A stretch of 64,000 bases of DNA from a virus (UHGV-0076293), one strand, 5' to 3'. Positions 1,863-45,007 are shown, numbered from the stretch's first letter. Made by a program: numbers and translations. Notes: generated from the sequence alone by a model not told the origin.

Positions 1863-1883
1863 AGTTGTTCCTAAATTAAGTGA

Positions 1884-1896
1884 GATAGATATTATC
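1884..1896 (+). promoter_or_regulatory. AT-rich promoter-like element GATAGATATTATC (copy 1), ~30 nt upstream of RNAP beta-like gene
   Basis: Identical 13-mer recurs at 43886-43898, also ~35 nt upstream of a strong RBS/ATG. Confidence 0.3.
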
Positions 1897-1925
1897 CTAC
1901 CGAATCAACCTAAAGGAGCATTAAA

Positions 1926-27784: not shown

Positions 27785-29047
27785 ATGGCAAATTTCGCAA
27801 AAACTCGCGCCGCTCGTGAATCGATGGAAGCTACTGCTACTGTAGTTCCAGACGGCATCGAACTGCCAGCAGAATCTGTTGAAGGTACTCTGGCCGATAT
27901 CGAACATGATACCAAACCGATCGAAGCCCTGGACGCTGACGCTGAACTGCTGGCCGAAGACGGTGACGAAACTGATGCTCAACTGGATGTCCTGGATGAA
28001 GCTCAGGCCGCTGCTGACGGTGAAGGTGCAGGTGAAGACGGCGAAGACCCGATGGATGCCGAAGAAGATATGCCGGACGACGCAGCGACTGCGCTGGACG
28101 TTGCTCAGGAATCTATCCGTTCTCGTTGGAACTTCGAACACCGTTCTTCCGTTGCACACGAATCCTACGGTTCTCGTAACCGTCGCCAGGTTGCTCGTGA
28201 ATCCCTGTGGGAAGACATTAAAGCATTCCTGAAACGTATCTGGGAATGGCTGAAAGAACAAGGCCGTAAGATCAAAGATCGTTGGCTGAAATTCTCCAAC
28301 CAGGGTAAATCCATTCAGGCTCGTTCTAAGAAATACGACGAAGCTATTCGTAAACTGGGCAAACAGAAGAAAGATGAAATCTCTGGTGGCTTCATCAAGT
28401 CTCTGTCTGTCGACGGTAAATTCGTTGGTGACGATCTGCCGCGCCTGAAGAATATCCTGAACCACGTCTCCACCTACTACAGTGGTAACGTTCAGAGCTT
28501 CCTGAACAACGGTACGGATATGGTTGGTAACGTCGTTAAAGGCGATGGCGCTAAAGTTGAGAAACTGAAAGCAGATTTCGCTGCTCTGGCCAAAGAAGAC
28601 GTTAGCAAGTTCAAACTTGGTAACATGGCACTGAAGATGGAATACGACGAAGAAGGCGGATTTAGCTCCAGCTATGTGGAAGCTGAAAACCGTGCTGAAA
28701 CCAACGTGAAAACTCCGTCTGTTAGCGATCTGGCTAAGACCAATGCCTTCTTCAACGAAGTGGGTAAACAGATCGAGAAGAACGTTCTGGAATATCGTAA
28801 GACTGAACAGGCTCGCGAGAAATTCAGCCAGCAGATTGAGAAGCTGCTGAAAGAAATCGACAGCGTGAAGATCGACGAAAAACCGGAACTGACCGAATCT
28901 GTACGTACCGCACGTCGTTACATCAACAGCATTAACCAGGCAGTGTCTCTGGGCGAGAAAGTTATTTCCTCTACTCAGAAACATCTGGCTGGCGGTCTGA
29001 ACGGCTATATCTCCGCAGGTATCGCTGCTTACGAAAAATCTAAATAA
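27785..29047 (+). CDS. abundant hypothetical protein, paralog 2
   Basis: 420 aa; N-terminus MANFAKTRAARESMEA and C-terminus GLNGYISAGIAAYEKSK shared with paralog 1. Confidence 0.6.
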   Translation: MANFAKTRAARESMEATATVVPDGIELPAESVEGTLADIEHDTKPIEALDADAELLAEDGDETDAQLDVLDEAQAAADGEGAGEDGEDPMDAEEDMPDDAATALDVAQESIRSRWNFEHRSSVAHESYGSRNRRQVARESLWEDIKAFLKRIWEWLKEQGRKIKDRWLKFSNQGKSIQARSKKYDEAIRKLGKQKKDEISGGFIKSLSVDGKFVGDDLPRLKNILNHVSTYYSGNVQSFLNNGTDMVGNVVKGDGAKVEKLKADFAALAKEDVSKFKLGNMALKMEYDEEGGFSSSYVEAENRAETNVKTPSVSDLAKTNAFFNEVGKQIEKNVLEYRKTEQAREKFSQQIEKLLKEIDSVKIDEKPELTESVRTARRYINSINQAVSLGEKVISSTQKHLAGGLNGYISAGIAAYEKSK

Positions 29048-29065: not shown

Positions 29066-29112
29066 GAGAACCACCCTGTAATGGGGTGGTTCTCCCTTTT
29101 CTTTTTTTTTTC
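29066..29112 (+). terminator. strong intrinsic terminator (gagaaccaccc-loop-gggtggttctc + T-run)
   Basis: 11-bp stem + >12 T. Confidence 0.75.
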
Positions 29113-29125
29113 GATTAAAAATAAA

Positions 29126-29166
29126 CTCAGATATATATTACCTTAGTGAGATTACGCTGTAATCTT
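29126..29166 (+). promoter_or_regulatory. conserved promoter-like element TCAGATATATATTACCTTAGTGAG (copy 1) followed by inverted repeat GATTAC-gctg-GTAATC
   Basis: Near-identical element at 37380-37404; contains TATATTAC; ~50 nt upstream of ATG 29202. Confidence 0.45.
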
Positions 29167-29201
29167 TTAACGACCTGTTTATTACGTTTAGGAGAATTAT
29201 C

Positions 29202-29843
29202 ATGACACGTTACAATTTAGCTGACTTCTGCGATTGTGCCTTTTCTGTTGAAGGTGACAAACTTGTAATGGCTGCGCCAAACGCAAGAGTCTTATCGTTG
29301 TATCAAGCCGAAGTTATTGCAATTTCGATTTGGTTAGCAAGGGCTATAGACGGCGGCTGTAAGGACCTTGATAAAGAAGTGTTGAAAGTCGGTCGTCGTG
29401 AATTTGTGTATAAAGCAGAAATCCAGAACCGTTTACCACAGACCTTTTTAAGCAGCTTGCTTAAAGATGTCAACACCCCAGTTGTCAGCCGAACATTTGA
29501 CGGGGTGAAATATTACTCTTTTGAAGATTCGCACGTTGCTATCTGTGAAGGCGAGAATAAGTTTTTTACGACCGTTATCTACTTTCGTATTGTTGAACCT
29601 ACGAAAGAAGAACTGGTTTGCAACACTGCGAACGATGTGGCCGGGATGCGTATGGACGATATCACCGGTTCACTATCTGGATTAAATGACATACCGCGTA
29701 TTGTGGAGCGAGTCTTGGAAGGAGACGATTACTTTAAGCTGCTTCCGCTGGTAGCAAGCGAAGAAACAGAACAGGAAAGCGCTTTCATTCAGGTTAACCT
29801 TACCGCTGCGCAGGCGGTAGATCGTTTCTTCGAAGCTTTATAA
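29202..29843 (+). CDS. hypothetical protein (213 aa)
   Basis: ORF with TAGGAGAA RBS. Confidence 0.55.
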   Translation: MTRYNLADFCDCAFSVEGDKLVMAAPNARVLSLYQAEVIAISIWLARAIDGGCKDLDKEVLKVGRREFVYKAEIQNRLPQTFLSSLLKDVNTPVVSRTFDGVKYYSFEDSHVAICEGENKFFTTVIYFRIVEPTKEELVCNTANDVAGMRMDDITGSLSGLNDIPRIVERVLEGDDYFKLLPLVASEETEQESAFIQVNLTAAQAVDRFFEAL

Positions 29844-29847
29844 TCAG

Positions 29848-29877
29848 AAAGCCCTCTACGGAGGGCTTTATTTTTTC
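29848..29877 (+). terminator. intrinsic terminator (aaagccctc-tacg-gagggcttt + T-run)
   Basis: Hairpin + T6. Confidence 0.65.
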
Positions 29878-29895
29878 GACCTTTAGGAGATAGAA

Positions 29896-30447
29896 ATGAA
29901 CAAATTTAATATCTTAGACGCTAAAGTCGTATCCGAGTCTTCTATTCAGCAAGAAATCTTTCGTGTTCAGTTCGGTGAGAAAGTTCTGAATATTCCGCGC
30001 CCAGTTATGATTGGCTTAGCGATATTCGTTAACAACAGCCATTGCAATGGTTCGGCGTTGTCAGTTCTTGAGTACGGTGGCTACCAGTTCTATATTCCAG
30101 AGCATCTCGAGTATAACCGTTTTATTGAACTTAAACCGTTCTATAAATTCATGCTTGATGCAGGGTATTCGATTCTAACCAAAACGTATATTCGTGACTA
30201 CTCGAAGTTAGAATCTTTCTATCGTGCCCGTGGTCTTCGTGTCCCGCAACCGTTTGACGGATACCAGACCCGCGTTGTGTTAACTGCGCCGTTAACGAAA
30301 GAACTGGCTTCCTATAAACTGGATATCGAGCAGAAACTACTGCGTGACGACTTACTGAAAATCTATAACCAGTTGTCCGTGGTACCTTCTTCAACTGTCT
30401 CGAACATTGAACCAGAGTACGGAATAAGACAATACAAGGAAGGTTAA
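29896..30447 (+). CDS. hypothetical protein (183 aa)
   Basis: ORF with TAGGAGA RBS. Confidence 0.5.
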   Translation: MNKFNILDAKVVSESSIQQEIFRVQFGEKVLNIPRPVMIGLAIFVNNSHCNGSALSVLEYGGYQFYIPEHLEYNRFIELKPFYKFMLDAGYSILTKTYIRDYSKLESFYRARGLRVPQPFDGYQTRVVLTAPLTKELASYKLDIEQKLLRDDLLKIYNQLSVVPSSTVSNIEPEYGIRQYKEG

Positions 30448-30448
30448 G

Positions 30449-30754
30449 ATGAAACCGAGAGCCGACCGAGTAGACGTAATACATTTTGAAGAGTGTGAAA
30501 CCGAGTATCAGGTTAAACGCACTGATTTACGTTTAGTTATTCCTAAGCTAAACGAACCTGAGTGGAACGGCGAGCTGATGGTACCGCTTGCCGAACCAAT
30601 TAAAACGGGGACAGGCGAGATTAATTATCTCCATTTAGAAGCCGCCGGACGCAAAGTAACCGTTTGGCATCTTGCTGACGGTTACAAAACCAGTCAGCTT
30701 ACACGTAAAGCATTTATTCGGAAATTAAGAAAGTCGATGGGAGTTGTGAAATGA
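30449..30754 (+). CDS. hypothetical protein (101 aa)
   Basis: ORF tightly packed between neighbours. Confidence 0.45.
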   Translation: MKPRADRVDVIHFEECETEYQVKRTDLRLVIPKLNEPEWNGELMVPLAEPIKTGTGEINYLHLEAAGRKVTVWHLADGYKTSQLTRKAFIRKLRKSMGVVK

Positions 30755-31287
30755 CAGTTACTGTATCTTTGATTGCAGCAGCGGGACTTAATAATGAAAT
30801 AGGGAAAGACAATAAACTCCCTTGGCATATTCCCGATGACTTGAAGAACTTCAAAGCACTTACGTCAGGTAAGGTTATCGTGATGGGACGTAAGACGTGG
30901 GAGTCGTTGGGATATAAACCCTTACCGAACCGTCACCATGTTATCTTAACACGAAAACAAGGCGGTGTTCCTGACATCGACGGTGTGTTGAACCTTAAAG
31001 GTGGCATGGGGTCGGTTATCGAGTTTCTCAAGAAAGAAGTCGTGGAGAAAGATTACCCGAAAGAAATCTTTATTATTGGCGGCGCAGAGATTTACCACCA
31101 AGCGATGCCTTATGCAGATAAGATTTACTTGTCTCGTGTTGAGGTTAAGGTAGAGGGCGCGGATGCGTTCTTCCCTGAAATCGATCGCGATGTCTTCAGA
31201 CTGAATTACAACCTGACACACTATTCGAAACCAGAAAGTGGTATTCCGCGTTGGCATTATCAGATTTGGAAAAGAGATGGGCGCTGA
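30751..31287 (+). CDS. folA: dihydrofolate reductase
   Basis: VSLIAAAGLNNEIGKDNKLPWHIPDDLKNFKALTSGKVIVMGRKTWESLG and IIGGAEIY match DHFR signature regions; 178 aa. Confidence 0.85.
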   Translation: MTVTVSLIAAAGLNNEIGKDNKLPWHIPDDLKNFKALTSGKVIVMGRKTWESLGYKPLPNRHHVILTRKQGGVPDIDGVLNLKGGMGSVIEFLKKEVVEKDYPKEIFIIGGAEIYHQAMPYADKIYLSRVEVKVEGADAFFPEIDRDVFRLNYNLTHYSKPESGIPRWHYQIWKRDGR

Positions 31288-31573
31288 GTTTGTAACCTTA
31301 GAAAAACTCTTTTTAGGCAGCGTCGCTAAAGGGAAGATAGCCCGTTTCACCTGGAACCGTACTCCCGTAAAATACGCGTTTCTACGTCGTTTACACTACG
31401 AGAAAAGCATCAAGCTGGTCTTGGTCGTGTTGTTCGAAAACAAACGCGGATTGTTGATTAATAATCGTCGTTTTGCGGCGGAGATCTGGGCGACCACATC
31501 TGGCGGCGAGGAAGCATCTGTTGGCTTTGCTAACGATGAGGTTATCTTTGAGGGTATACCTTATCTGTTATAG
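31275..31573 (+). CDS. hypothetical small protein
   Basis: ORF overlapping DHFR 3' end; ATG at 31275 (track begins 31238); terminator downstream. Confidence 0.35.
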
Positions 31574-31586
31574 CACAGATAAACAT

Positions 31587-31621
31587 AAAAGGGGACTTCG
31601 GTTCCCTTTTATTTTTTTTTC
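31587..31621 (+). terminator. intrinsic terminator (aaaagggga-cttcgg-ttccctttt + T-run)
   Basis: Imperfect hairpin + T9. Confidence 0.55.
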
Positions 31622-31662
31622 ATTTCGCGCCTGTGATATGACTATAACGAAGGAACAAGCCA

Positions 31663-33171
31663 ATGCAACAGTATTTTGAAATTCCGTCGTTAGACGCGAC
31701 CATTCGCAAACCGATAATCGATGGCGTTATACAACGTGTACTTAATGAATCAGGTATTGATAAAGCAGCGGTTGTTTTCCTTGATGAATTCAATAGCGCA
31801 CATCAACCCGATTCCACGTTAGGCGACGGTACAGAAGTTGAGTACAGCTCGCCTGAAAAGGTGTATGTTGAAGTAGAAGAAGAACGTGATGAGTGGGCCA
31901 GAATCAATCGTCAGGTTGGTCAGCAAGCCGAACCGTACTTCTTTGAAAACTCCGTCGATCAGGTACGCGCCTGGCCCGTTAGAACGATGTATAACGTAAC
32001 GGTGACGTTACGACGTACCAGTGCTTCTCGCGATGAGTTATTGCGCTGGACAAACCGTTTAGACTCGTTAGTGGACATGGGTCGGTATTCGACAATGACC
32101 GAGTCAGAAGCGTTTTATTATATTCCGAAACCGGCACTGAAGTTGCTGAATGCCTGTTATGTCGCCGCAGGGACTCGTGTACCGACGTTTGATGATTTTA
32201 AAGCCTATCTCAAAGCGTACTTTACACCCGACGTGTTTCGCGCTGCTAACGTTGCCGGTGGACAGGAATCTATTGCGGTTCGCTATGCACCTACTCGCTT
32301 AGAGACTGTATACGACGTTCAGACACCTGCCTGGGATAAAGACGAGAACCACTGGGAAGCTACATTCGTCGTGCGTTTCTCTTATCAACGTCCTGAAGAG
32401 ATTGTGGTTTCGTATCCGTATATCATCAACCAGACACCGCTTCCTGATGAATATTGGCCAGAGATAGATCCACCGTGGGTGTCTAACGAAGAACTGGTGT
32501 ATCGTCATCCGCAACAAAAGAATCTCGATTCAACGTGGTGGATTAACGAAACCCGTCAGTATATTCGTTTACCGTATCTACTGTCACCGACAGAACAGTT
32601 CCACCGTACACATTCCCCGTTAAAAGATAAACTCTTACACGTTTTCGGAACAGACGTTGTATTTGATGAAGACAATATGAGCTCACCGAAAGTGTTATCT
32701 GTGGAGGATTTACCGTACGAGTGGAATCCAGATTTGTTGCCGTATATCGAACACTGTCGTGCAATAGACCCTACCGGACAGACAGGTGTCTTCCGTGTGG
32801 AGCTGTTCGAAGAAGGACAAATCATCGAACCGCGTTTCTATCATTGGGAAGACAATACCTTCTTTTTGAAAGGACGTGATTTAAAAGTTAACAAGAGTTA
32901 CTACCTAACCGAATCGGTGATGTTCGACTGGCGAGGGATGAACCTGTGGCCACTCCAGCTCTATCCTAAAGCTGCGAAAGTGTTGATAGAATGGTTATTT
33001 CCGAAATGGGATGTACCGGACTGGTGGTGGGATAAACCCGTATTACCGCCTAGTGTTGTCGACGACATTAATAAACTGATTCCTAACGTAGAAGCCCGCG
33101 TCTTGCTGACGGTGCTGAACTCGACTGTGATTACCATGCGAGGGACAGAGAATGCTCAAAGCGAAGCGTGA
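31663..33171 (+). CDS. hypothetical protein (502 aa)
   Basis: ORF with AAGGAA RBS. Confidence 0.55.
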   Translation: MQQYFEIPSLDATIRKPIIDGVIQRVLNESGIDKAAVVFLDEFNSAHQPDSTLGDGTEVEYSSPEKVYVEVEEERDEWARINRQVGQQAEPYFFENSVDQVRAWPVRTMYNVTVTLRRTSASRDELLRWTNRLDSLVDMGRYSTMTESEAFYYIPKPALKLLNACYVAAGTRVPTFDDFKAYLKAYFTPDVFRAANVAGGQESIAVRYAPTRLETVYDVQTPAWDKDENHWEATFVVRFSYQRPEEIVVSYPYIINQTPLPDEYWPEIDPPWVSNEELVYRHPQQKNLDSTWWINETRQYIRLPYLLSPTEQFHRTHSPLKDKLLHVFGTDVVFDEDNMSSPKVLSVEDLPYEWNPDLLPYIEHCRAIDPTGQTGVFRVELFEEGQIIEPRFYHWEDNTFFLKGRDLKVNKSYYLTESVMFDWRGMNLWPLQLYPKAAKVLIEWLFPKWDVPDWWWDKPVLPPSVVDDINKLIPNVEARVLLTVLNSTVITMRGTENAQSEA

Positions 33172-34522
33172 TAAGCCGTCAACATTTGAACCCGTAGACC
33201 GGCCTATCCCCGAATTAAATAAACCACAGGACGGTGTAAAAGAAACCACCAATATCGTTACGCAACCCACACGTACAACTGTTACTGATTTAGACCGTAT
33301 TCCAAAGCAATACCTAATGAAGTATCTGGAAGGGTCAGCGTGGACGGTGGACTTCTTTAACTTCCTGAAAGGAAGAAACGACGCCAAGAAGTTTTTCGAT
33401 TCGAAAGTGCTTACACCTGACCAACAGGTGGAGAAAATCATCGGGTTGGAGCTGCGTGTAACGACACCGCTCGACCGTAGCCAAGACACCACGAACAAAA
33501 CGTTCAGCATGTCAGGCGCTGCAACAATTGCAAACTCGATTATCCCTAACGAGGGTTGCTTTTTCATCGCCCCTATCGGTGACGGTCGTTTCGCGTTGTT
33601 TAACGTTACCAACGTTGTGCGTATGTCGAATAACAAAGTCGCGACGTACAACATTGAATACACGTTACTTTTCGAAGTTGACCCAGAAACCGCAGAAACG
33701 ATTCGTCGTTGTACCGTACGTGAATACTACTACGTTGCAGAGCGTGCCTGGACAGGTGGTGATACACTTCTCACACCGAAAGAGTACCGTGCGTTCCTGG
33801 AAGTCGTTGACGCGATTGAAGACATTGAACAGACGTATGTAAAACGTTTCTACGACGGTGAAACGGCCACGTTGTTGTTCCCACACGATCGTCACAGCGA
33901 CGGTTTGCGTAGCCGTGCTTACTACGACGTGTTCTTAGCGCTGTTTGTGCGCGCGGTGGGGTTACGTACCGTAGGTAAGGATATTCAGATTTATCCGCAC
34001 CCACCGATGAACGTGGAAGACATTGAAACGGTGTGGACAGCGCTGCTGCAACAGTCGCCAACGTTCTTAGCAGATTACAAACGTGACAGCACGGTGTGGC
34101 AAACGAAAACTTTCCGTACGATGCAACATCGTAACTCGGTAACGTGGTCGTTGATCTCTGATACCCGGTTCTTTACGGAAGAGTTAAAGCCAGGTTACGG
34201 GATGGCGCAACGTTTCCCCGGTCAGTGGCCAGAATGGAAACCGTTTGAGCCGGTTGAAGTTGAAAACTATCGTGGGAACGAAGGGGAGTCTATTCCGGCC
34301 TTCCTACCGCTGTCCTTTAAACCGTATTTGCTGAGCGAGACGTTCTACGACGGTTCTTACAGTTCGTTGTTGGAATACGGCTTGTACTTGTACCTGCATA
34401 AACGTTCGCTACCGTCGGTAATTGCGTTAAAACTGTTTGAGGAAGTTTATAAGCTCCCGAAAGACGCACAGTTCTATTACATTCCGATGGTGTATCTGCT
34501 TTTAAGATATTCGAGGGATTAA
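33152..34522 (+). CDS. hypothetical protein (456 aa)
   Basis: ORF overlapping upstream gene end. Confidence 0.5.
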   Translation: MLKAKRDKPSTFEPVDRPIPELNKPQDGVKETTNIVTQPTRTTVTDLDRIPKQYLMKYLEGSAWTVDFFNFLKGRNDAKKFFDSKVLTPDQQVEKIIGLELRVTTPLDRSQDTTNKTFSMSGAATIANSIIPNEGCFFIAPIGDGRFALFNVTNVVRMSNNKVATYNIEYTLLFEVDPETAETIRRCTVREYYYVAERAWTGGDTLLTPKEYRAFLEVVDAIEDIEQTYVKRFYDGETATLLFPHDRHSDGLRSRAYYDVFLALFVRAVGLRTVGKDIQIYPHPPMNVEDIETVWTALLQQSPTFLADYKRDSTVWQTKTFRTMQHRNSVTWSLISDTRFFTEELKPGYGMAQRFPGQWPEWKPFEPVEVENYRGNEGESIPAFLPLSFKPYLLSETFYDGSYSSLLEYGLYLYLHKRSLPSVIALKLFEEVYKLPKDAQFYYIPMVYLLLRYSRD

Positions 34523-34523
34523 T

Positions 34524-35063
34524 GTGTCAGTGAAACGTAGTGCAGCATTTATGCTGTTCCATAAGTGGGTAGCATGGCGGGTTCCTGAATGGACAACCAT
34601 CACCCAGTATATGTCGCAAGAACACGGATTGTTCTTGCCGGATGACGAAAAGAAAGCACGAGCGATTTTGTTGAATAAGAAAACGGTCTATATGCGGCCA
34701 TTTGAAGTGGCGGTGTATGCAGAGACCGGTGCTGCGTTAGATGTTCACGATCCGAATGACGGTATTATCGTTTACGGATATATCATGGAACACCTAGCAG
34801 ATTGGTTACATTACATGCAAGAGCCTCATCTGACGACGCGTAAAGTGCCGATAGAAGGACTCCGTCAGTTCAACGCCTTAGCATGTAAACTCTTTCCCGT
34901 TGCTAACCGATACGGTTATTTTAAGAAACCGGAAGTGACGATGGCGACGTCGGTACAAGCGTTATTTGGAGAGGTGCGTTTAGAAACGCAGCAACACCGT
35001 TTTAACGATACGATAATGCGACGTATAGAAGCGATTTATCGTAAAAGGGGAGGTATACTGTAA
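34524..35063 (+). CDS. hypothetical protein (179 aa), GTG start
   Basis: GAGGGA RBS 5 nt upstream of GTG. Confidence 0.45.
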   Translation: MSVKRSAAFMLFHKWVAWRVPEWTTITQYMSQEHGLFLPDDEKKARAILLNKKTVYMRPFEVAVYAETGAALDVHDPNDGIIVYGYIMEHLADWLHYMQEPHLTTRKVPIEGLRQFNALACKLFPVANRYGYFKKPEVTMATSVQALFGEVRLETQQHRFNDTIMRRIEAIYRKRGGIL

Positions 35064-36382
35064 TGTCGTTTGGTCGGTTACAGAACATAGCAAACGTGCA
35101 CATTGCACAAGCGGCGGGATTACCGGCCATCGAATACGTACCTATCATTACGGTACGTGGCACAGTTATCAGCGTATTTAAAACGTTGTCGATAATCCAT
35201 GCCAGTAACTTCGCACAGGACTTAACGACTATCACCCATCTTACCGTGATGATACCGTTAAGCCAACAGCGTGTGTTAACGTCTTCCGCAGACGGGGATT
35301 TGTCCGTGAAAATTCTAATGCGGACAATGAACAAGAAAACCGTTGCGAAACTCGACTATCGGGGTATCGTCGTGAACAACCACGATCCCGATATGGAATC
35401 GCCCACGATGTTCTTAGGTGAGTCTGACCAGAAAGCGTTAGCGGTCGTCACCCTGGAGTTGATGGACGAGTCGATGTGGTTCTTACGTTGCCGTCAAGTC
35501 GGTGGGATTTATCACGAGACAGATGGTCTTAGTGTTGTTCGTGCACTGCTGGCAGATACGTTACCTACTGGTGATGCGCCAGAAGGCCAGTTGGTGGGTG
35601 TGGAGTACGAGGAAGAGGAGCAACAGCCCTATCGGGATATTTTGATTCCTGACTCGGAAAGTTTCCTGTCCGTGTTCGATTACCTTCAGAATCGTTACGG
35701 GGTTTATAGTCAAGGTCTGGGGGTGTTCCTCTACAAACACCGTTGGTATATTTTCCAACCTTGGGATTCTAAGAAGTTTTCATCAGCGAAGAATAAGCTG
35801 GTGATTATAAACCTGCCGAAAGAGAAAGCAGCGTATCTGAATAAGACCTGCCACATTGACGGTGACGTGATTTACCTGATATGTGGTGGCGATGTCCACA
35901 CCTTCGAAGATAAAGACTCCTTAGCACTAAACCAAGGTACCGGTTATCGTGTGGGGTCTATCCGTGCGTTGGATGGCCGTGCGTCTTCTTTCTCGTCAGG
36001 CGATGTTTCTGCTACAACGTCAGATTCGTTCGTGTCAGCGGCTGATCCGACGCAATATCCAGGTGGGGTGGTTAACGCACCAATAGACCCGAACCAACAC
36101 TTCTCGGACACAGATAAACCGCAACGGTCTAAGTTGGCGGCGGCGAAAGGGACGCTAACAGCAACAACCTGGAACGCATCAACGTACGGCTTACTCCGTC
36201 CGGGGATGGCAGTAAAATATATTTATGCGAATAACTATGGTGTATACACGCGTTACGGAACATTAGTTGCAGAAGTTTTCCAAGGTGCAATTGATGGTGG
36301 TTCAGCGGCTTCACCACGGTTTAATACCATTAGCCAGTTGACGTTGTGGCTGACTAATGAAAATTTTACATCCACAACGTAA
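35063..36382 (+). CDS. hypothetical protein (439 aa)
   Basis: ORF with GGGGAGG RBS; start overlaps upstream stop. Confidence 0.5.
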   Translation: MSFGRLQNIANVHIAQAAGLPAIEYVPIITVRGTVISVFKTLSIIHASNFAQDLTTITHLTVMIPLSQQRVLTSSADGDLSVKILMRTMNKKTVAKLDYRGIVVNNHDPDMESPTMFLGESDQKALAVVTLELMDESMWFLRCRQVGGIYHETDGLSVVRALLADTLPTGDAPEGQLVGVEYEEEEQQPYRDILIPDSESFLSVFDYLQNRYGVYSQGLGVFLYKHRWYIFQPWDSKKFSSAKNKLVIINLPKEKAAYLNKTCHIDGDVIYLICGGDVHTFEDKDSLALNQGTGYRVGSIRALDGRASSFSSGDVSATTSDSFVSAADPTQYPGGVVNAPIDPNQHFSDTDKPQRSKLAAAKGTLTATTWNASTYGLLRPGMAVKYIYANNYGVYTRYGTLVAEVFQGAIDGGSAASPRFNTISQLTLWLTNENFTSTT

Positions 36383-36414
36383 GTTATGTCGACAGCAACC
36401 TAAAGGATTTGTTA

Positions 36415-37215
36415 ATGAGCAATTTACTTACTTTCCGCATGTCTGGTCAAACGTTAATGCAGATTGACGAGTACGAAAAAGAACATTTCGCTAAACCGTC
36501 TAAACTGTTAGAACGTTGCTTAAAGGTTATTCCAGGCGGCGAGCATTGTCAGCTAGATTTCGTCATGGCGTCTTCTGCTGACAAAACGGTCTCTGTTATC
36601 TACACGGTTGACGGAGTACAGGGCCATCGCTTATTACCGATTGAAGAAAAAGGTTCTTTGGGTAATTTGTTGTTCTTGCACGCAATCACGACTGCGGTAG
36701 TGACGGGAGCACTGGAAGCGCAGTACGGTTTCGCGTATTGTTATTTCTACGCACAGAAGTTGGCGAATGCGGTAGTTCCAGGAGAACCAGAAACGTATCC
36801 GAAGTATATCGAACGTTTGCTTCCGACGCATTTTGCTGAGTCTGACGACTATGAGTTCAATGCTTTCCGTTTCACGATGGTTGGCGAAGCACGCGATCCT
36901 GAAAACACCATTGCGTTACGTGCTGTTGTTCGTTACGCAGTAATTTCGTCTGACAGCGGAATGGCAAGCAACTTCAACGAAGTGTTCCCGGTTATGCAAC
37001 TAGGTCCGTATATCACGTTTAATGCGTACGTACCGTTTACTTGTCAGTTAATCGGCCCGCAGGATAACGATTCTATCCTCCCGATTACTGAAGAGAAAGG
37101 TCTGCATATTCGTGACGCTGTAGAAGTCATCAATGATAAACGTTTTACGATCTCATCAAAAAGCGGTATTGCTGATGAAGAACTTGCGGTCGTGAACAAA
37201 ATGCAAGTGATGTAA
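36415..37215 (+). CDS. hypothetical protein
   Basis: ATG at 36415 with AAAGGA RBS (track begins at TTG 36409). Confidence 0.5.
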   Translation: MSNLLTFRMSGQTLMQIDEYEKEHFAKPSKLLERCLKVIPGGEHCQLDFVMASSADKTVSVIYTVDGVQGHRLLPIEEKGSLGNLLFLHAITTAVVTGALEAQYGFAYCYFYAQKLANAVVPGEPETYPKYIERLLPTHFAESDDYEFNAFRFTMVGEARDPENTIALRAVVRYAVISSDSGMASNFNEVFPVMQLGPYITFNAYVPFTCQLIGPQDNDSILPITEEKGLHIRDAVEVINDKRFTISSKSGIADEELAVVNKMQVM

Positions 37216-37220
37216 AATTA

Positions 37221-37258
37221 TCCCGTTACCTTTGTGGGTAACGGGATGTCCTTTTATT
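37221..37258 (+). terminator. intrinsic terminator (tcccgttacc-loop-ggtaacggga + T-rich)
   Basis: 10-bp stem + ttttattt. Confidence 0.65.
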
Positions 37259-37379
37259 TACTCGTAAATGCGTCTTAGACGCTGTTTTACACCTTAAGAC
37301 GATTAATGGTGTTTAAAAAATAAAAGGTCGTCAGAATGCGATACAGCGCGTTTTAGAGGGTGTTTTAATTAAAAATATT

Positions 37380-37415
37380 TTCAGATATATATTACTTAGG
37401 TGAGAGAATTACGTA
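37380..37415 (+). promoter_or_regulatory. conserved promoter-like element TCAGATATATATTACTTAGGTGAG (copy 2) followed by palindrome ATTACGTAAT
   Basis: Matches 29126-29150 at 23/24 positions; sits in the longest intergenic gap (37216-37452), ~50 nt before ATG 37453. Confidence 0.45.
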
Positions 37416-37452
37416 ATACTCATTTATCGAATACCTAATTAGGAGCTATATC

Positions 37453-37596
37453 ATGATTTCTGTAAAACACAAAAAAGCTATCTTCGCTGTTGTTATCGCT
37501 GTTGTTCTGGGTTGCCTGTACCTGGATATCGATAAAGGCTACGACACTTGCATCGACAACGGTAATTCCGTTGCGCAGTGCACTGGTCGTGGTTAA
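37453..37596 (+). CDS. small hydrophobic protein (47 aa), possible lipoprotein/membrane peptide
   Basis: Not in ORF track (<60 aa); AGGAG RBS; sequence MISVKHKKAIFAVVIAVVLGCLYLD... with lipobox-like VLGC; own terminator. Confidence 0.45.
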   Translation: MISVKHKKAIFAVVIAVVLGCLYLDIDKGYDTCIDNGNSVAQCTGRG

Positions 37597-37603
37597 TGTA
37601 TAA

Positions 37604-37632
37604 GGCACCTTCGGGTGCCCTTAATTTTTTTA
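37604..37632 (+). terminator. intrinsic terminator (ggcacc-ttcg-ggtgcc + T-run)
   Basis: Tetraloop hairpin + ttaattttttta. Confidence 0.6.
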
Positions 37633-38538: not shown

Positions 38539-38694
38539 ATGAGAAATGTTAATGCAATGCTTAACCAGGCATTTGTTAACCAACAGCGTTTTCAGGAACG
38601 CTTAGCACAACTTAAAACACAACACAGACCACCACAACAAAGAGTGGTTAAGAGCAAGTTCGGCGAAATGGTTTTCGAAAGAAAATCTTTCTAA
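38539..38694 (+). CDS. small basic protein, member A of a 3-gene paralog array (51 aa)
   Basis: Not in ORF track; AAAAGGAA RBS; C-terminal half RVVKSKFGEMVFERKSF resembles the two downstream small ORFs. Confidence 0.45.
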   Translation: MRNVNAMLNQAFVNQQRFQERLAQLKTQHRPPQQRVVKSKFGEMVFERKSF

Positions 38695-38702
38695 TAACCG
38701 TT

Positions 38703-38727
38703 AGGGGTGTGACAGCACCCCTTTTTA
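38703..38727 (+). terminator. intrinsic terminator (aggggtg-tgacag-cacccct + T5)
   Basis: Hairpin + T-run. Confidence 0.55.
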
Positions 38728-38844
38728 CGCTTTAACTTTTCCAAAGAGAAGTTAAAGCAGTAAGGACTGTTGGCGCAGTCCTTACTTGTCATCGCTATTA
38801 CAGAAACGTGATAGCACAATTCTAATTTTTAGAGGCGATCAGAA

Positions 38845-39012
38845 ATGTTCGACAGTATTACACAAATTTTTAACACTACCGTAAACAATCACGCTCAGCA
38901 AGCGAAGTTTAATGAACGATTAAGGGAAGTTCAACAATTAGGATTAAATAAAAGATTAAAATCTTCCAATAATCCTCGAGTACAGATCTTCACCGAAAGG
39001 AGAAGTAACTGA
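38845..39012 (+). CDS. small basic protein, member B of paralog array (55 aa)
   Basis: Not in ORF track; ...QQLGLNKRLKSSNNPRVQIFTERRSN closely parallels member C. Confidence 0.45.
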   Translation: MFDSITQIFNTTVNNHAQQAKFNERLREVQQLGLNKRLKSSNNPRVQIFTERRSN

Positions 39013-39020
39013 TAAAAACA

Positions 39021-39050
39021 AGGTGAGCTGTTGGAGCAGCTCACCTTTTA
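39021..39050 (+). terminator. intrinsic terminator (aggtgagctg-ttggag-cagctcacct + tttt)
   Basis: 10-bp stem. Confidence 0.55.
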
Positions 39051-39108
39051 CAACGCCATTACGTTTCCGTAATGGATTTCTTTAATCACCCTACAAAGAG
39101 GGCTTACC

Positions 39109-39282
39109 ATGAACAATGGTTACTACTTTACTGACAAAATGCTTGCAGAACAATATGCAGCAAAAACCAATTTACAGCAACGTATCTACGAGTATAGTCA
39201 ACTCGGTGCGAATAAACGATTAAAACCATCAACCAACCGTTTCACACAGATAATCACTGAAAAAAGGAGTGAACGCTACTAA
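39109..39282 (+). CDS. small basic protein, member C of paralog array (57 aa)
   Basis: Not in ORF track; AAGAGGG RBS; ...SQLGANKRLKPSTNRFTQIITEKRSERY. Confidence 0.45.
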   Translation: MNNGYYFTDKMLAEQYAAKTNLQQRIYEYSQLGANKRLKPSTNRFTQIITEKRSERY

Positions 39283-41530: not shown

Positions 41531-43816
41531 ATGAAAGATACCCGAATCTCTAATTTAGAGAAACTCGTAGAAGCCGGTACTAGTCTGGCCCAAAACGTCA
41601 TCGGCAACAACACCGCCAGCGAAATGTGGAAGACGATTGTTGCAGGCGAGTCCGTACGTAGCAACGCAAAAGTATTTGGCGCTCTGCGTGACGAAGCATC
41701 ACAGCACTATGCCAACGCTTTTGGCGGCAAGAAAATGTCTCATGCTGCGACCGTCGCTTCCGCAATGATTCTGGGCGTAGCTAACCACGGTAAAGACCTG
41801 CAAGAACGTGTTGCCCAGGAATACGCTAAGCCGGAATTCCACACCAAGTATAACCTGGATATTGGTATCCCTGGTGCGCAAGGTGGTGATTGGGGTCGTG
41901 AGCGTATGGTTGTTGCTCAGGAATACTACAGCAACAAAGACTACGACAAAAACCTGGGCCTGACCTGGACCCTGAACGTACGTGCTCTGGAAACTCAGTC
42001 CAAGTTTGCTGAAACACTGTTCCCGACCATTACCGTTGACACCAACGATGTTGGTATTACCGTACGTACTAAAGTGACTACCGTTTCTCGCGGTATCATG
42101 AACGCGCTGCTGAGCAAAGACGTCGTTGAAGATCATCGTCGTCCGCTGCACAACGCTCTGACTGACCACACCGTTCTCCAGGACGAAGCGATCAACATCG
42201 TTCCTTACGTAATGGAAACCGGTGAAAACCAGGAATACTTCGTAAGCGAAGATCTGGTTCCGAACGAAACCGTTCGCCTGGGCCGTGTACCTCCGTATCC
42301 GACTAACTACCTGAGCTTTGCAAACGACACACTGAACCTGTTCCAGCTGTCTGCGCATCCGGGTATTGTTCAGGAAGGTTACGATGAAACTGATGAAATC
42401 GCACCGGGTTGTGCTCTGGGCAGCCTGCTGATTTCTGTACGTAAACCGGCCGAAGAAGCGAAAGCGGGTAAATTCATCAAACTGCACGTTCGTGACATGC
42501 AGTTCGCAACCTTCCAGCGTCCTGCTGAAGGTGACGGCCGTGAACTGGTTCTGCAATTCCGTCGTACCGCGTTCTCTCTGAATGCGAAAACCACTGACTG
42601 GAAAGGCGACGCTATTCCGGCACTGCAAGCACTGGGCCAGAACTCCTACACCCTGCGCTACGTTATCACCATCACCATGTCCCTGTTCACCAGCGGCCAG
42701 TTCGGTGGTAAAGTAGACATTTCCGGCCACAAACTGGAAATCGAAGGTCTGTACGATGCAACTGGTAACAAAGTTGATACCAAGTCTGGTACCGGTAAAG
42801 TTATCCTGGACGGCCTGAAACTCGAGCTGATGGGCTGGCGCTTCGATGGTACTCGTACCAACGAAAACCGTCGTACCCAGGGTCTGCTGCTTGACCCAAT
42901 TTGGGAACAGGAAAACTACAAACTGCAATACGGTTCTCCGATTCTGACCAAGTCTCCGGTTGGTGTTGAATACGACGACACTGAACGTCTGGATGACCTG
43001 ATCTCTGCGGTGAACATCCGTAACGAACAGCTGGCTATTACTCAGACGCTGTCTTACACTGAAGCAGTACGTAACGCAGCCGCTGCGATGATCACTCCGT
43101 GGGACAAACCGGCTATCCGTGGTCTGGGCCGTCACTGGGTTGCTCCGTGGTTCAAAGAGTCTGACTACAAAGTCGATGAAGTTGTTCAGTCTCTGGATAC
43201 CAAAGAAGCGCTGATCAACGCTCGTCAGGGTCTGTTGCAGCGTATCGGTAGCCAGGTAACTCAGGCTATCCAGGATTCTCGTTTCATTCCTGCACTGCGC
43301 CTGCTGACTGCTGATCCGGACATTCTGCCGAAAGTTATCATCGCAACTGACGAACCGACTGCATCCATGCTGCTGCTGGTTCAGGGCGACCAACGTCTGC
43401 TGGGCGACCGTTATGAATACGAAGTCGTTACCACCAACGATGACCGCTGGCGTATCTACAACGCAGCTGACGATTCCTGGACTCGTCGTCTGCAATGGTT
43501 CCTGAAAGTTCCGACTGCGGACGATGGTTCCTACTGCGTACTGAACTGGGGTAACCACTTCTGGTCTCCGATCATGGTTACCAACATCAACATCCAGCGT
43601 AACGGTTCTACTTCTAAAGAACTGGCTGTACAGCCGCGTAACGCGCATATCTGCCACTGCCCGATCACTGGTCTGATTTGGGTTAAAGGCATCACCAAAC
43701 TGGTTGAAGAAAAACTGGCTTACAACGTTTCTGTAGAACAGAACGGCCAGAAACAAACCGAAGGTGGTGTAGCAGGTAATGTTGCTGGCGACGGTAAAGA
43801 CAAAGCTGGTAAATAA
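41531..43816 (+). CDS. abundant structural protein, putative jumbo-phage major capsid protein (761 aa; tail sheath not excluded)
   Basis: Size matches the ~750-aa capsid proteins of phiKZ-like phages; codon usage appears strongly optimised by eye; own strong terminator; no homology search possible. Confidence 0.45.
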   Translation: MKDTRISNLEKLVEAGTSLAQNVIGNNTASEMWKTIVAGESVRSNAKVFGALRDEASQHYANAFGGKKMSHAATVASAMILGVANHGKDLQERVAQEYAKPEFHTKYNLDIGIPGAQGGDWGRERMVVAQEYYSNKDYDKNLGLTWTLNVRALETQSKFAETLFPTITVDTNDVGITVRTKVTTVSRGIMNALLSKDVVEDHRRPLHNALTDHTVLQDEAINIVPYVMETGENQEYFVSEDLVPNETVRLGRVPPYPTNYLSFANDTLNLFQLSAHPGIVQEGYDETDEIAPGCALGSLLISVRKPAEEAKAGKFIKLHVRDMQFATFQRPAEGDGRELVLQFRRTAFSLNAKTTDWKGDAIPALQALGQNSYTLRYVITITMSLFTSGQFGGKVDISGHKLEIEGLYDATGNKVDTKSGTGKVILDGLKLELMGWRFDGTRTNENRRTQGLLLDPIWEQENYKLQYGSPILTKSPVGVEYDDTERLDDLISAVNIRNEQLAITQTLSYTEAVRNAAAAMITPWDKPAIRGLGRHWVAPWFKESDYKVDEVVQSLDTKEALINARQGLLQRIGSQVTQAIQDSRFIPALRLLTADPDILPKVIIATDEPTASMLLLVQGDQRLLGDRYEYEVVTTNDDRWRIYNAADDSWTRRLQWFLKVPTADDGSYCVLNWGNHFWSPIMVTNINIQRNGSTSKELAVQPRNAHICHCPITGLIWVKGITKLVEEKLAYNVSVEQNGQKQTEGGVAGNVAGDGKDKAGK

Positions 43817-43831
43817 TAACGAATAAAAAGT

Positions 43832-43870
43832 GTCTAAGCCCTTCGGGGCTTAGACCTTTTATTTTTTTCT
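43832..43870 (+). terminator. strong intrinsic terminator (gtctaagccc-ttcg-gggcttagac + long T-run)
   Basis: 10-bp stem, tetraloop, ~14 T-rich nt. Confidence 0.75.
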
Positions 43871-43885
43871 TTCTATTATTTTTTG

Positions 43886-43898
43886 GATAGATATTATC
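43886..43898 (+). promoter_or_regulatory. AT-rich promoter-like element GATAGATATTATC (copy 2)
   Basis: Identical to 1884-1896; ~35 nt upstream of strong RBS (AAAGGAGA) and ATG 43934. Confidence 0.3.
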
Positions 43899-43996
43899 AA
43901 AGGGAGACTGTCAGTTGGTTTAAAGGAGACTTTATGGAAAAAATACAGTTAAGACTAAAGATATGTACCATTATTAAAACTTAATCTGGCCCTTAC

Positions 43997-45007
43997 ATGA
44001 ACCGTCTTGATATTGATGTGGTACCCAGTATTACTGACCGCTCGTTGTATCAAAAGTCAGGACTACAAAAACTCATCACTTTTGAGAATAATACTGGTGT
44101 GCCAATTTACGTCACTGAAACCAGTGGCGGTAGCTTTATTTTAACTCCGTCCAAAAGCCCGGCTGATGAGCATGGGGTTGTTGTTTATGTAACGTATCAA
44201 TCATTCGGAAATCTGGCTAACCTGAACGGGTTTGCAGAAGTCTTACCAGAAAAACAATTCACTAAATTTTGTGCAGATTTAAAGGAGAAAGGAGAGGTCA
44301 CACTCCGATACGTGGTTGACGATATCGGTGCTTTATTACGTGGGGACTTGGTTGTATTGAAGCAGCTAGGATTCGCATTTTCAATTACACCAGTTCGATT
44401 AGAAAGTACGCCACCGAGCGTAAGACCAGGAGGTGAGAGAACTGAATTTACATTAGGTGTTATTGTTGTGCAGCGTTACGACGATCCCGAACTATATCGT
44501 TGGATTAGATTCTACGGAACGCGCATGGAAGTACAACCGGTACTATCACGGTATTACGAACCGGGTGTGTACATGGTAATAGGAGGAGGAGACAAAGTAG
44601 AAGGGAGCAGGATGATTCACTTTGAGTTCGATGACTTATTGTCACCGTTCCGTGTTTTTAAAGATAAAGAAACAGCCACTGCGTTTCGATGGCAAGAAAC
44701 GTTACCGGATATTCACGAGATAAAGGAAAAGCTGGAAAGTCAATACAGAGAAAAATTAGAAAGTTTGGATTCGGCAAAAGACAAACTGGAATTAGAACAC
44801 AAAAAACAACTACAGAATTTGGCTTTAGAAAAGGAGCGTTTGACTCTAGCGTATAAACAACAAGAACTAGAAGCAAAGTCTCGGGCAGAGGCACGAAAAG
44901 AATTCTACGAGACTCGTTCTTACATTCGTAAAGATGGGTCAGACCTATTTAAATCAGTCCCTGCGTATCTGGCGGCGGGTGTCGCATTTATAGGGATGCT
45001 AAAGTAA
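43997..45007 (+). CDS. hypothetical protein with C-terminal coiled-coil and terminal hydrophobic segment (336 aa)
   Basis: ORF; no RBS at its ATG; in frame with a 16-codon ORF (43934-43984) that has a strong RBS. Confidence 0.45.
   Translation: MNRLDIDVVPSITDRSLYQKSGLQKLITFENNTGVPIYVTETSGGSFILTPSKSPADEHGVVVYVTYQSFGNLANLNGFAEVLPEKQFTKFCADLKEKGEVTLRYVVDDIGALLRGDLVVLKQLGFAFSITPVRLESTPPSVRPGGERTEFTLGVIVVQRYDDPELYRWIRFYGTRMEVQPVLSRYYEPGVYMVIGGGDKVEGSRMIHFEFDDLLSPFRVFKDKETATAFRWQETLPDIHEIKEKLESQYREKLESLDSAKDKLELEHKKQLQNLALEKERLTLAYKQQELEAKSRAEARKEFYETRSYIRKDGSDLFKSVPAYLAAGVAFIGMLK

What the first reader, a model, noticed from the sequence alone, without database searches (positions are those of the whole stretch)
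29126..37415. Conserved TATATTAC-containing promoter-like element followed by an ATTAC/GTAAT palindrome, at two operon starts
TCAGATATATATTAC(C)TTAG(G)TGAG occurs at 29126 and 37380, each just after a strong terminator and ~50 nt upstream of the first ATG of a gene block (the DHFR-containing block and the small-gene array). Each is followed by an inverted repeat (GATTACgctgGTAATC; ATTACGTAAT). As I recall, phiKZ early promoters have an AT-rich consensus containing TATATTAC; these look like equivalent virion-RNAP promoters, with the palindrome as possible operator or 5' RNA stem.
Basis: partly seen in the sequence, partly recalled or inferred. Interest (0 to 1): 0.5.

Follow-up and report, generated by a model that had tools for sequence, protein, structure and literature searches.

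The report
Jumbo-phage early promoters with 5' hairpin
The two repeated elements are very probably early promoters read by the RNA polymerase that an SPN3US-like giant phage carries in its virion, which is a known kind of signal; across this phage clade such promoters are followed by a hairpin that starts at the predicted first base of the transcript.

Summary
TCAGATATATATTAC occurs at 29127 and 37381 (+), inside a 43-nt gap-free repeat that is 81% identical. Each copy lies downstream of a strong terminator and 51-54 nt upstream of a start codon, counted from the predicted start site.

The window comes from an SPN3US-like jumbo phage and encodes a homologue of the virion RNA polymerase subunit gp42. 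The motif matches published early-promoter consensuses of phiKZ-related phages: TATATTA(C/T), six bases, then G as +1. That rule puts the starts at G29148 and G37402.

In the whole SPN3US genome the motif model hits 22 places. Twenty-one are on the + strand, and 20 of those are intergenic and just upstream of genes. The window also holds two weaker GATAGATATTAT-type sites (43883, 1881).

The palindromes belong to a family-wide feature. In about 50 promoters of this type a hairpin begins at predicted +1. Stem sequences differ between sites but stay complementary, which fits an RNA stem and not a protein operator. It is stable at site 1 and marginal at site 2. SPN3US GATATTAT-type sites and phiKZ mostly lack it.

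Its function, probably 5'-end protection of early mRNA, is inferred. There is no transcript evidence for this clade.

The parts
29066..29111 (+). Intrinsic terminator that closes the upstream internal-head-protein gene (27785-29047). Stem-loop 29066-29094, then a T-rich run.
   Evidence: 13 pairs, 7 of them GC, followed by a T-run. Sequence read.
29109..29151 (+). Promoter block 1 (class I). An A/T element GATTAAAAATAAAC at 29113-29126 (about -35 to -22). The core TCAGATATATATTAC at 29127-29141. Six bases CTTAGT, then G29148 as the predicted +1.
   Evidence: (60 bits). The TSS rule comes from PMC5312081 and is applied here by inference.
29148..29166 (+). Hairpin at the predicted 5' end of the transcript: GAGAUUAC-gcu-GUAAUCUU, 8 pairs including a terminal G-U.
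   Evidence: -5.5 kcal/mol, z -3.3, 1 of 200 shuffles folds as well. Orthologous sites keep the hairpin with altered stems.
29190..29843 (+). Shine-Dalgarno AGGAG (29190-29194) and the first gene, 29202-29843 (213 aa, no known family). The 5' UTR is 54 nt.
   Evidence: No SPN3US homologue. Replaced by about 140 nt in the close relative L007.
29848..29869 (+). Terminator directly after the first gene. The genes beyond it run to DHFR (30751-31287) and a further terminator at 31585-31612.
37219..37248 (+). Terminator that closes the structural-gene block ending at 37215.
   Evidence: 13 pairs, followed by a T-run.
37363..37405 (+). Promoter block 2 (class I). An A/T element AATTAAAAATATTT at 37367-37380. 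The core at 37381-37395. Six bases TTAGGT, then G37402 as the predicted +1.
   Evidence: (63 bits).
37404..37421 (+). Weak 5' hairpin that contains the palindrome ATTACGTAAT (37408-37417). It has 3+3 pairs around an A-A mismatch and a 4-nt loop.
   Evidence: only -1.5 kcal/mol, z +0.4, so it is not significant alone. The SPN3US ortholog at 65411 has a stable hairpin with a different sequence.
37441..37619 (+). Shine-Dalgarno (37441-37445), a 47-aa hydrophobic first gene (37453-37596, related to SPN3US gp66) and a terminator-like hairpin (37604-37619). The 5' UTR is 51 nt.
43883..43904 (+). Class II promoter-like site TTGGATAGATATTAT, six bases, then G43904. It follows the terminator of the major capsid gene and precedes a 16-aa ORF (43934-43984) and ORF 43997-45007.
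   Evidence: 14.4 bits against a shuffle maximum of -2.7. The SPN3US ortholog is at 72484.
1881..1902 (+). Class II promoter-like site TGAGATAGATATTAT, six bases, then G1902. It lies 24 nt upstream of the RNA polymerase beta-like gene 1926-4166.
   Evidence: The same core is conserved upstream of SPN3US gp34 at 28971. The matrix score alone is not significant (-5.5).

Best explanation
Both elements are early promoters of the phiKZ-related (Chimalliviridae) type. They would be used by the multisubunit RNA polymerase that the phage packages in its virion and injects with its DNA.

Proposed steps, all inferred from sequence and from related phages:
1. The polymerase recognises an extended A/T-rich signal: ATTAAAAATA at about -34 to -25, TTTCAGA at about -23 to -17, and ATATATTAC at -15 to -7.
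2. It starts at the G six bases downstream, G29148 and G37402.
3. This gives short early transcription units that begin just after a terminator and carry 51-54-nt leaders with a strong Shine-Dalgarno sequence.

The inverted repeat downstream is not an operator. It is the DNA image of a stem-loop that begins at or within 2 nt of the first transcribed base. In this clade the conserved start GAGA(G/T) forms the 5' arm, and each promoter carries its own matching 3' arm.

The most likely role of a base-paired 5' triphosphate end in an enterobacterial host is protection. It would shield early mRNAs from 5'-end-dependent decay by RppH and RNase E while no phage protein has yet been made.

What is shown: the motif, its family-wide conservation, its strand and intergenic bias, the register of the hairpin and its covariation. 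What is inferred: the polymerase, the start site and above all the function of the hairpin.
For: Identity of the phage:
- The window is syntenic with SPN3US.
- It encodes RNA polymerase beta/beta'-like genes.
- It encodes a 72%-identical homologue of SPN3US gp42, a virion polymerase subunit detected in virions by mass spectrometry (PMC5694885).

Motif:
- It matches the published early-promoter consensuses (PMC7058600, PMC7598289, PMC11512511).
- It fits the rule consensus, 6N, G+1 (PMC5312081).
- The exact 15-mer recurs two to three times per contig in many 220-247-kb IMG/VR jumbo contigs, in the same extended context.
- In SPN3US the matrix hits 22 places, 21 on the + strand. Twenty of those 21 are intergenic and 26-135 nt upstream of a + strand gene. 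The shuffle maximum is 0.3.
- The degenerate pattern hits 16:0 (+:-) in SPN3US and 4:0 in the window, against 0.01 expected.

Hairpin:
- For 49 promoter-context sites the 40 nt downstream have mean MFE -8.8 kcal/mol and z -2.7. For 67 other occurrences of the same 15-mer the values are -3.9 and z -0.2 (p about 1e-12).
- When the RNA is started at predicted +1, 37 of 50 sites have no unpaired 5' nucleotide, against 15 of 66 controls. Stability collapses when the start is moved 3 nt downstream.
- In a mate-swap permutation on 36 non-redundant sites, 0 of 10,000 permutations reach the observed pairing.
- A same-geometry subset is 97.5% paired. Three of 8 pairs have changes on both sides. Controls with the partner slid by 1-3 columns pair at 40-58%.
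- Non-Watson-Crick positions in the stems are G-T 8 against A-C 2.
- All 7 SPN3US class I promoters have the hairpin.
Against: - No transcript, TSS or polymerase data exist for this phage or, as far as I could find, for any SPN3US-like phage. The start site is transferred from phiKZ, AR9 and phiR1-37.
- The hairpin at site 2 of the window is marginal (-1.5 kcal/mol, z +0.4). Site 1 is modest in absolute energy (-5.5 kcal/mol).
- The hairpin is largely missing at SPN3US class II sites and at phiKZ TATATTAC promoters (about 2-3 of 8). It therefore cannot be required for the polymerase in general.
- The G-T versus A-C asymmetry rests on 10 positions.
- Many of the roughly 50 sites are orthologues or paralogues. 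Clustering leaves 36, and these are still not fully independent.
- The protective function is an analogy to E. coli 5' stem-loops recalled from my own knowledge. It was not tested.
Confidence: 0.75

Rival explanations
1. The elements are strong promoters for the host sigma-70 RNA polymerase. TATATT would serve as the -10 box and the A-rich stretch as an UP element.
For: TATATT differs from TATAAT at one position, and the upstream region is A/T-rich.
Against: - The sigma-70 scan reports neither site.
- The hexamers 17 bp upstream are TCGATT and TTAATT, each 3 of 6. There is no TG extension.
- Conservation extends over 40 nt or more, including TCAGA, the final C and GTGAG. A sigma-70 promoter does not need these.
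- The same signal is the mapped early promoter of rifampicin-insensitive relatives (PMC5312081; PMC13282480).
Confidence: 0.06
2. The palindrome is an operator. A dimeric phage or host repressor binds it and shuts early promoters off later in infection.
For: The inverted repeats overlap the start of transcription, which is a classic operator position. SPN3US has a 'putative transcriptional regulator' (gp101) behind one such promoter.
Against: - Across sites the distal stem, the loop (3-12 nt) and the arm spacing all vary.
- Only complementarity is kept. A rigid dimer could not read that.
- G-T oppositions outnumber A-C, which favours a single-strand structure.
Confidence: 0.05
3. The inverted repeat acts in DNA. 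A hairpin or cruciform just downstream of +1 helps the sigma-less virion polymerase melt or recognise the promoter. This would be loosely comparable to the hairpin promoters of the phage N4 virion polymerase.
For: How jumbo-phage virion polymerases recognise promoters is unknown (PMC5312081; PMC7598289). Stem sizes of 6-9 bp with short loops resemble N4 promoter hairpins. In some sites the pairing extends a few bases upstream of predicted +1 (offsets 0-2).
Against: - The N4 hairpins lie upstream of +1, whereas these lie downstream.
- Class II sites and phiKZ promoters work, or are predicted to work, without the repeat.
- G-U pairs in the sense strand would be A-C mismatches in the other arm of a cruciform.
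Confidence: 0.1
4. The hairpin is a promoter-proximal regulatory RNA. It could be an attenuator or pause site, or a nut/put-like element that lets the polymerase read through the terminators inside these short operons.
For: Terminators sit right after the first gene of both units (29848-29869, 37604-37619). TCTTTT after the stem is enriched, 15 of 50 sites against 0 of 66.
Against: - The stems are A/U-rich and short.
- The T content of the 6-nt tail does not differ from controls, 1.96 against 1.74.
- Loops are not conserved, unlike lambda boxB.
- There is no Rfam match.
Confidence: 0.08

Closest known systems
Early (virion RNA polymerase) promoters of phiKZ-related jumbo phages: phiKZ TATATTAC, 201phi2-1, AR9 AAATATATATTAT-(6N)-G+1
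   Same: - The core is TATATTA(C/T), followed by six bases and a G.
- Further conserved A/T blocks lie near -20 and -30.
- The sites sit after terminators at the head of short early units.
- They share one strand with the genes.
- The phage encodes virion polymerase subunits.
   Different: - In this clade the conserved block is longer: an exact 15-mer plus YTWRGTGAGAG.
- The transcript is predicted to begin with a stem-loop. phiKZ promoters mostly lack one.
- No start sites have been mapped for SPN3US-like phages.
Predicted promoters of OBP and N1M2 (TTTCARRYAKATATTATYWAAGTG; PMC7058600)
   Same: The window's weaker sites at 43883 and 1881, and 13 SPN3US sites, carry GATAGATATTATC. This is the OBP/N1M2 form of the core. 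Some of these sites precede RNA polymerase genes, as reported for N1M2.
   Different: Here this form coexists in one genome with the TATATTAC form. It mostly lacks the +1 hairpin and has shorter leaders. Whether it marks a different timing class is unknown.
5'-terminal stabilising stem-loops of E. coli mRNAs (ompA-type; work of Belasco and colleagues, cited from my own knowledge)
   Same: A hairpin lies within 0-2 nt of the 5' end. That is the geometry which blocks RppH and the 5' sensor of RNase E.
   Different: This is analogy only. Half-lives are untested, the stems are shorter and A/U-rich, and the 5' end is only predicted.
Hairpin promoters of the phage N4 virion RNA polymerase
   Same: A virion-delivered polymerase, early promoters, and a small inverted repeat as part of the signal.
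   Different: In N4 the hairpin forms in DNA upstream of +1 and is read by a single-subunit enzyme. Here the repeat lies downstream of +1 and the enzyme has several subunits.
T4-type PeSL cassettes (a stem-loop plus early promoter flanking variable early genes; cited from my own knowledge)
   Same: A terminator hairpin is followed by a conserved early promoter at the border of a variable gene. The first gene behind site 1 is replaced in a 92-97% identical relative.
   Different: PeSL promoters are host sigma-70 promoters. A role of the present cassettes in recombination has not been shown.

Membership tests
phiKZ-related early (virion RNA polymerase) promoter | A highly conserved A/T-rich element of about 10 nt containing TATATTA(C/T) | tested here: met
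   ATATATATTAC at 29131-29141 and 37385-37395. The consensuses are in PMC7058600 and PMC5312081.
phiKZ-related early (virion RNA polymerase) promoter | Transcription starts at a conserved G six bases downstream of the element | not testable with these tools
   A G is present at that position at all four window sites and in 16 of 16 SPN3US pattern hits. No 5'-end data are available.
phiKZ-related early (virion RNA polymerase) promoter | Many copies per genome, co-oriented with the genes, in intergenic DNA at operon starts | tested here: met
   In SPN3US 21 of 22 matrix hits are on the + strand, and 20 of those 21 are intergenic and 26-135 nt before a gene. In the window 4 of 4 are on the + strand. 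There are several copies per IMG/VR jumbo contig.
phiKZ-related early (virion RNA polymerase) promoter | Further conserved blocks near -20 and -30 | tested here: met
   The information profile of 47 sites shows ATTAAAAA at about -34 to -27 and TTTCAGA at about -23 to -17. PMC11512511 describes conservation at -10, -20 and -30.
phiKZ-related early (virion RNA polymerase) promoter | The phage encodes a virion-packaged multisubunit RNA polymerase | tested here: met
   Window 12223-13524 is 72% identical to SPN3US gp42, a virion polymerase subunit (PMC5694885). Only one of the five subunits lies inside the window.
phiKZ-related early (virion RNA polymerase) promoter | Early expression that does not depend on host RNA polymerase or on new protein synthesis | not testable with these tools
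   This needs infection experiments with rifampicin and chloramphenicol.
Sigma-70 promoter | A -35 and a -10 hexamer with 16-18 bp spacing, at least 9 of 12 matches | tested here: not met
   Neither site is reported by the scan. The -35 candidates match 3 of 6.
5'-terminal protective stem-loop | A hairpin beginning within about 2 nt of the RNA 5' end | tested here: met
   With the predicted +1, 43 of 50 family sites have at most 2 unpaired 5' nucleotides. Window site 1 has 0 and site 2 has 2, though the site 2 stem is weak. This depends on the inferred start site.
5'-terminal protective stem-loop | The stem lengthens mRNA half-life in a way that depends on RppH or RNase E | not testable with these tools
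   This needs half-life measurements with stem mutants and compensatory mutants.
Intrinsic terminator or attenuator | A G+C-rich stem followed directly by a U-tract | tested here: not met
   The stems are A/U-rich. The T content of the tail is 1.96 against 1.74 in controls.
N4-type hairpin promoter | A DNA hairpin upstream of +1 with conserved stem and loop bases | tested here: not met
   The repeat begins at predicted +1 and runs downstream. Loops and distal stems are not conserved.
Dimeric-repressor operator | Both half-sites conserved in sequence at a fixed spacing | tested here: not met
   Arm spacing and sequence vary between sites. Only complementarity is kept.
Any curated RNA family (Rfam 15) | A match at the gathering threshold | tested here: not met
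   No match anywhere in the window.

The most novel reading that the evidence does not exclude
In SPN3US-like enterobacterial jumbo phages, the TATATTAC-type early promoters are coupled to an obligatory stem-loop at the very first transcribed bases. This coupling is absent from the GATATTAT-type sites of the same genomes and from most phiKZ promoters, and I found no description of it in the searchable literature.

It could mark a distinct class of immediate-early mRNAs whose base-paired triphosphate end acts as a cap-like shield. It could also act as a handling signal for transcripts that must leave the early infection vesicle. That is a step with no known mechanism.
Probability: 0.4. Interest if true: 0.6.

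Novelty: new member of a known kind. Interest (0 to 1): 0.4.

Why it matters
For annotation, the sites mark the start of early transcription units in an undescribed SPN3US-like phage. They point to the first genes expressed after injection: a 213-aa orphan protein, a 47-aa membrane peptide and the DHFR block. Such genes are candidates for host takeover.

More generally, promoter recognition by the sigma-less virion polymerase is unsolved. A clade in which about 50 near-identical promoters differ mainly in a compensating +1 stem offers a ready set of natural variants for experiments. If the stem protects or routes early mRNAs, that would explain how transcripts made before any phage protein exists survive in an enterobacterial cell.

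Tried and rejected
- RNAalifold on a MAFFT alignment of 36 leaders gave no consensus structure, because loop lengths differ and the 3' arms fall out of register. I used alignment-free tests instead and a same-geometry subset.
- Rfam found nothing in the window.
- The terminator or attenuator idea was dropped. T content after the stem equals that of controls.
- I tested whether the hairpin is general to the family using the first 50 kb of phiKZ. Only about 2-3 of 8 TATATTAC promoters have it. The rest of the phiKZ genome was not fetched.
- Literature searches for a described +1 hairpin, for SPN3US promoters or transcriptomes, and for the motif string returned nothing relevant.
- The phiKZ transcription paper of Ceyssens et al. 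2014 is not held.
- The leader element AATCGACYAT seen in SPN3US is not present as such in the window.
- The shared ATTAC/GTAAT in the two window palindromes is not a family feature. Other sites use different stems.


Full report
**1. The observation**

The 15-mer TCAGATATATATTAC is present exactly twice, at 29127-29141 and 37381-37395, both on the + strand. The two sites align without gaps over 43 nt at 81% identity, 29109-29151 against 37363-37405. This is the longest direct repeat in the region.

Each site follows a strong intrinsic terminator, at 29066-29094 and 37219-37248. Each precedes a Shine-Dalgarno sequence and an ATG, at 29202 and 37453.

- The coordinates are one base low.
- The optional bases are substitutions, not indels.
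- The first inverted repeat is GATTAC-gct-GTAATC.

The bare 8-mer TATATTAC is not enriched, 3 found against 1.95 expected. The third copy, at 60008, lies inside a gene. The structured pattern ATAKATATTAY-6N-G gives four hits, all on the + strand, against 0.01 expected.

**2. What the window is**

The best matches in the phage collection are Erwinia phage Stratton and SPN3US-like Salmonella phages, at 72-74% nucleotide identity over parts of the query only. This makes it an undescribed relative. IMG/VR holds 92-98% identical fragments from contigs of about 225 kb.

Gene order follows SPN3US gp34 to about gp96:
- RNA polymerase beta/beta'-like genes at 1926-6265
- a helicase and a DNA polymerase
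- DHFR at 30751-31287
- the major capsid gene at 41531-43816

ORF 12223-13524 is 72% identical to SPN3US gp42. Mass spectrometry identified gp42 as a subunit of the five-part virion RNA polymerase (PMC5694885).

**3. The motif is the early promoter of this phage family**

Published consensuses match well:
- phiKZ: TATATTAC
- 201phi2-1: TTAWTAVAA..WTTTRARR.BTATATTACDWHDGTG
- OBP/N1M2: TTTCARRYAKATATTATYWAAGTG (PMC7058600)

The window sites read ATTAAAAATA-(3-4 nt)-TCAGATATATATTAC-YTWRGTGAG. Reviews state that every RNA-polymerase-encoding jumbo phage has such an A/T-rich motif centred near -10 of its early start sites, and that the virion polymerase is taken to read it (PMC7598289). For AR9 the mapped consensus is AAATATATATTAT-(6N)-G+1. 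phiKZ and phiR1-37 also start 6 nt downstream of the element (PMC5312081). Applying that rule puts +1 at G29148 and G37402, with leaders of 54 and 51 nt. This step is an inference.

**4. Genome-wide test**

About 50 of the hits lie in jumbo contigs of 205-247 kb, often two or three per contig, in the same extended context. The remaining hits are unrelated coding occurrences.

A weight matrix built from 47 such sites scores the two window sites at 63 and 60 bits, against a shuffle maximum of -2.7.

I fetched the complete SPN3US genome and scanned it. There are 22 hits above 0 bits against a shuffle maximum of 0.3. Twenty-one are on the + strand. Checked against the annotation tables, 20 of these 21 are intergenic and 26-135 nt upstream of a + strand gene.

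The hits at 56292 and 65411 are the positional orthologues of the two window sites. One lies after the internal head protein gene. The other lies before the small-gene array gp66-72.

**5. Two forms of the promoter**

SPN3US has seven TATATTAC-type sites (class I) and about thirteen GATAGATATTATC-type sites (class II, the OBP/N1M2 form). The window has two class II sites:
- 43883, at 14.4 bits. It follows the capsid-gene terminator and is followed by a 16-aa ORF. The SPN3US ortholog is at 72484.
- 1881, which is weak by matrix score. Its core is conserved upstream of the orthologous polymerase gene SPN3US gp34, at 28971.

**6. The palindromes**

Alone, each palindrome is the kind of inverted repeat expected by chance in 64 kb. 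Across the family the picture is different.
- The 40 nt after the core fold much better at promoter-context sites (mean -8.8 kcal/mol, z -2.7, n = 49) than at other occurrences of the same 15-mer (-3.9 kcal/mol, z -0.2, n = 67; p about 1e-12).
- A simple hairpin finder gives a score of 6 or more in 88% of promoter sites against 28% of the others. The commonest start is exactly the seventh base after TAC, which is the predicted +1.
- Folding RNAs that start at predicted +1 leaves no unpaired 5' nucleotide in 37 of 50 sites, against 15 of 66 controls. Moving the start 3 nt downstream abolishes the stability.
- The stems differ between sites: GAGATTAC/GTAATCTC, GAGATTAG/TTAATCTT, GAGAGTTA/TAACTCTT, GAGCATTGA/TCAATGCTT. 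In a mate-swap permutation on 36 non-redundant sites, none of 10,000 permutations reaches the observed pairing.
- A subset of ten sites with the same 20-nt geometry is 97.5% paired. Three of eight pairs have changes on both sides. The covariation score is 0.369 against 0.092 in shuffles, and slid partners pair at 40-58%. This subset was chosen for its geometry and its members are partly related.
- Non-Watson-Crick positions are mostly G-T, 8 against 2 A-C. This is weak evidence for a structure in the sense strand.
- All seven SPN3US class I promoters have the hairpin (mean -7.3 kcal/mol, z -2.7). Class II sites mostly do not (-4.0 kcal/mol, z -0.55).
- In the first 50 kb of phiKZ only about two or three of eight TATATTAC promoters have one.

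In the window itself, site 1 has a clear hairpin at 29148-29166 (-5.5 kcal/mol, z -3.3). Site 2 has only a marginal one at 37404-37421 (-1.5 kcal/mol, z +0.4).

**7. Mechanism**

Variable stems, loops and arm spacing with preserved complementarity rule out a fixed protein operator. They favour an RNA stem-loop at the extreme 5' end of class I early transcripts.

The hairpin is not terminator-like. The stems are A/U-rich and the tail has no excess of T. Its loops are not conserved as in lambda boxB.

My preferred reading is protection of the triphosphate 5' end from RppH and RNase E entry during the first minutes of infection. It is an analogy to E. coli 5' stem-loops, drawn from my own knowledge and not tested here.

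Two other roles remain open:
- A role in DNA melting or promoter escape by the sigma-less polymerase.
- A role in handling transcripts that must leave the early infection vesicle. That vesicle is described as exporting mRNA by an unknown route.

**8. Novelty**

The promoter is a new member of a well-known kind. I found no description of the coupling of class I promoters to a +1 stem-loop in the SPN3US-like clade. Much of the primary literature is not held, including Ceyssens et al. 2014 and the AR9 genome paper that predicted these motifs.

**9. Verdict**

- The promoter interpretation is supported by comparative and literature evidence, but not by transcripts.
- The palindrome is best read as a 5' RNA stem. 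It is strong at site 1 and weak at site 2.
- Interest is moderate.

Noticed in passing
window 43829-43984: After the major capsid gene comes a terminator (43829-43857). It is followed by a GATAGATATTAT-type promoter-like site (43883-43904) and a 16-aa ORF with a good Shine-Dalgarno sequence (43934-43984), ahead of ORF 43997-45007. SPN3US has the same layout at 72484, with an unannotated small ORF.
   Followed up: partly
window 1881-1925; L121 (SPN3US) 28971: AGATAGATATTATC(C/T)TACCGA is conserved immediately upstream of the RNA polymerase beta-like gene in both phages, although their proteins are only about 70% identical. This is a likely promoter for the non-virion polymerase genes.
   Followed up: partly
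window 29202-29843; L007 4827-4966: The first gene behind promoter 1 (213 aa) has no Pfam or PHROG hit and no SPN3US homologue. In a 92-97% identical IMG/VR relative about 140 nt take its place. The exchange is bounded by the start codon and by the last roughly 30 nt before the terminator. The cassette looks like a hot spot for gene replacement.
   Followed up: partly
window 38539-39282: Three small paralogous ORFs of 51, 55 and 57 aa share ..NKRLK..ERRS-like C-terminal halves. Each is followed by a strong hairpin. None has the early-promoter motif in front of it.
   Followed up: no
L121-L125 (SPN3US), e.g. 65457, 94282, 114032, 167594, 223320, 224199: The leader element AATCGAC(C/T)AT occurs 11 times on the + strand and never on the - strand. 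It typically lies 27-29 nt before a start codon, and it also occurs in leaders without a class I promoter. It is not present in this form in the window.
   Followed up: partly
window 37453-37596: The first gene of the second unit encodes a 47-aa peptide with a hydrophobic core. It is related to SPN3US gp66 and is followed at once by a terminator-like hairpin (37604-37619).
   Followed up: no
window 27785-29047 and 60277-61410: Two paralogous internal head protein genes (PHROG 2497) lie about 31 kb apart.
   Followed up: no
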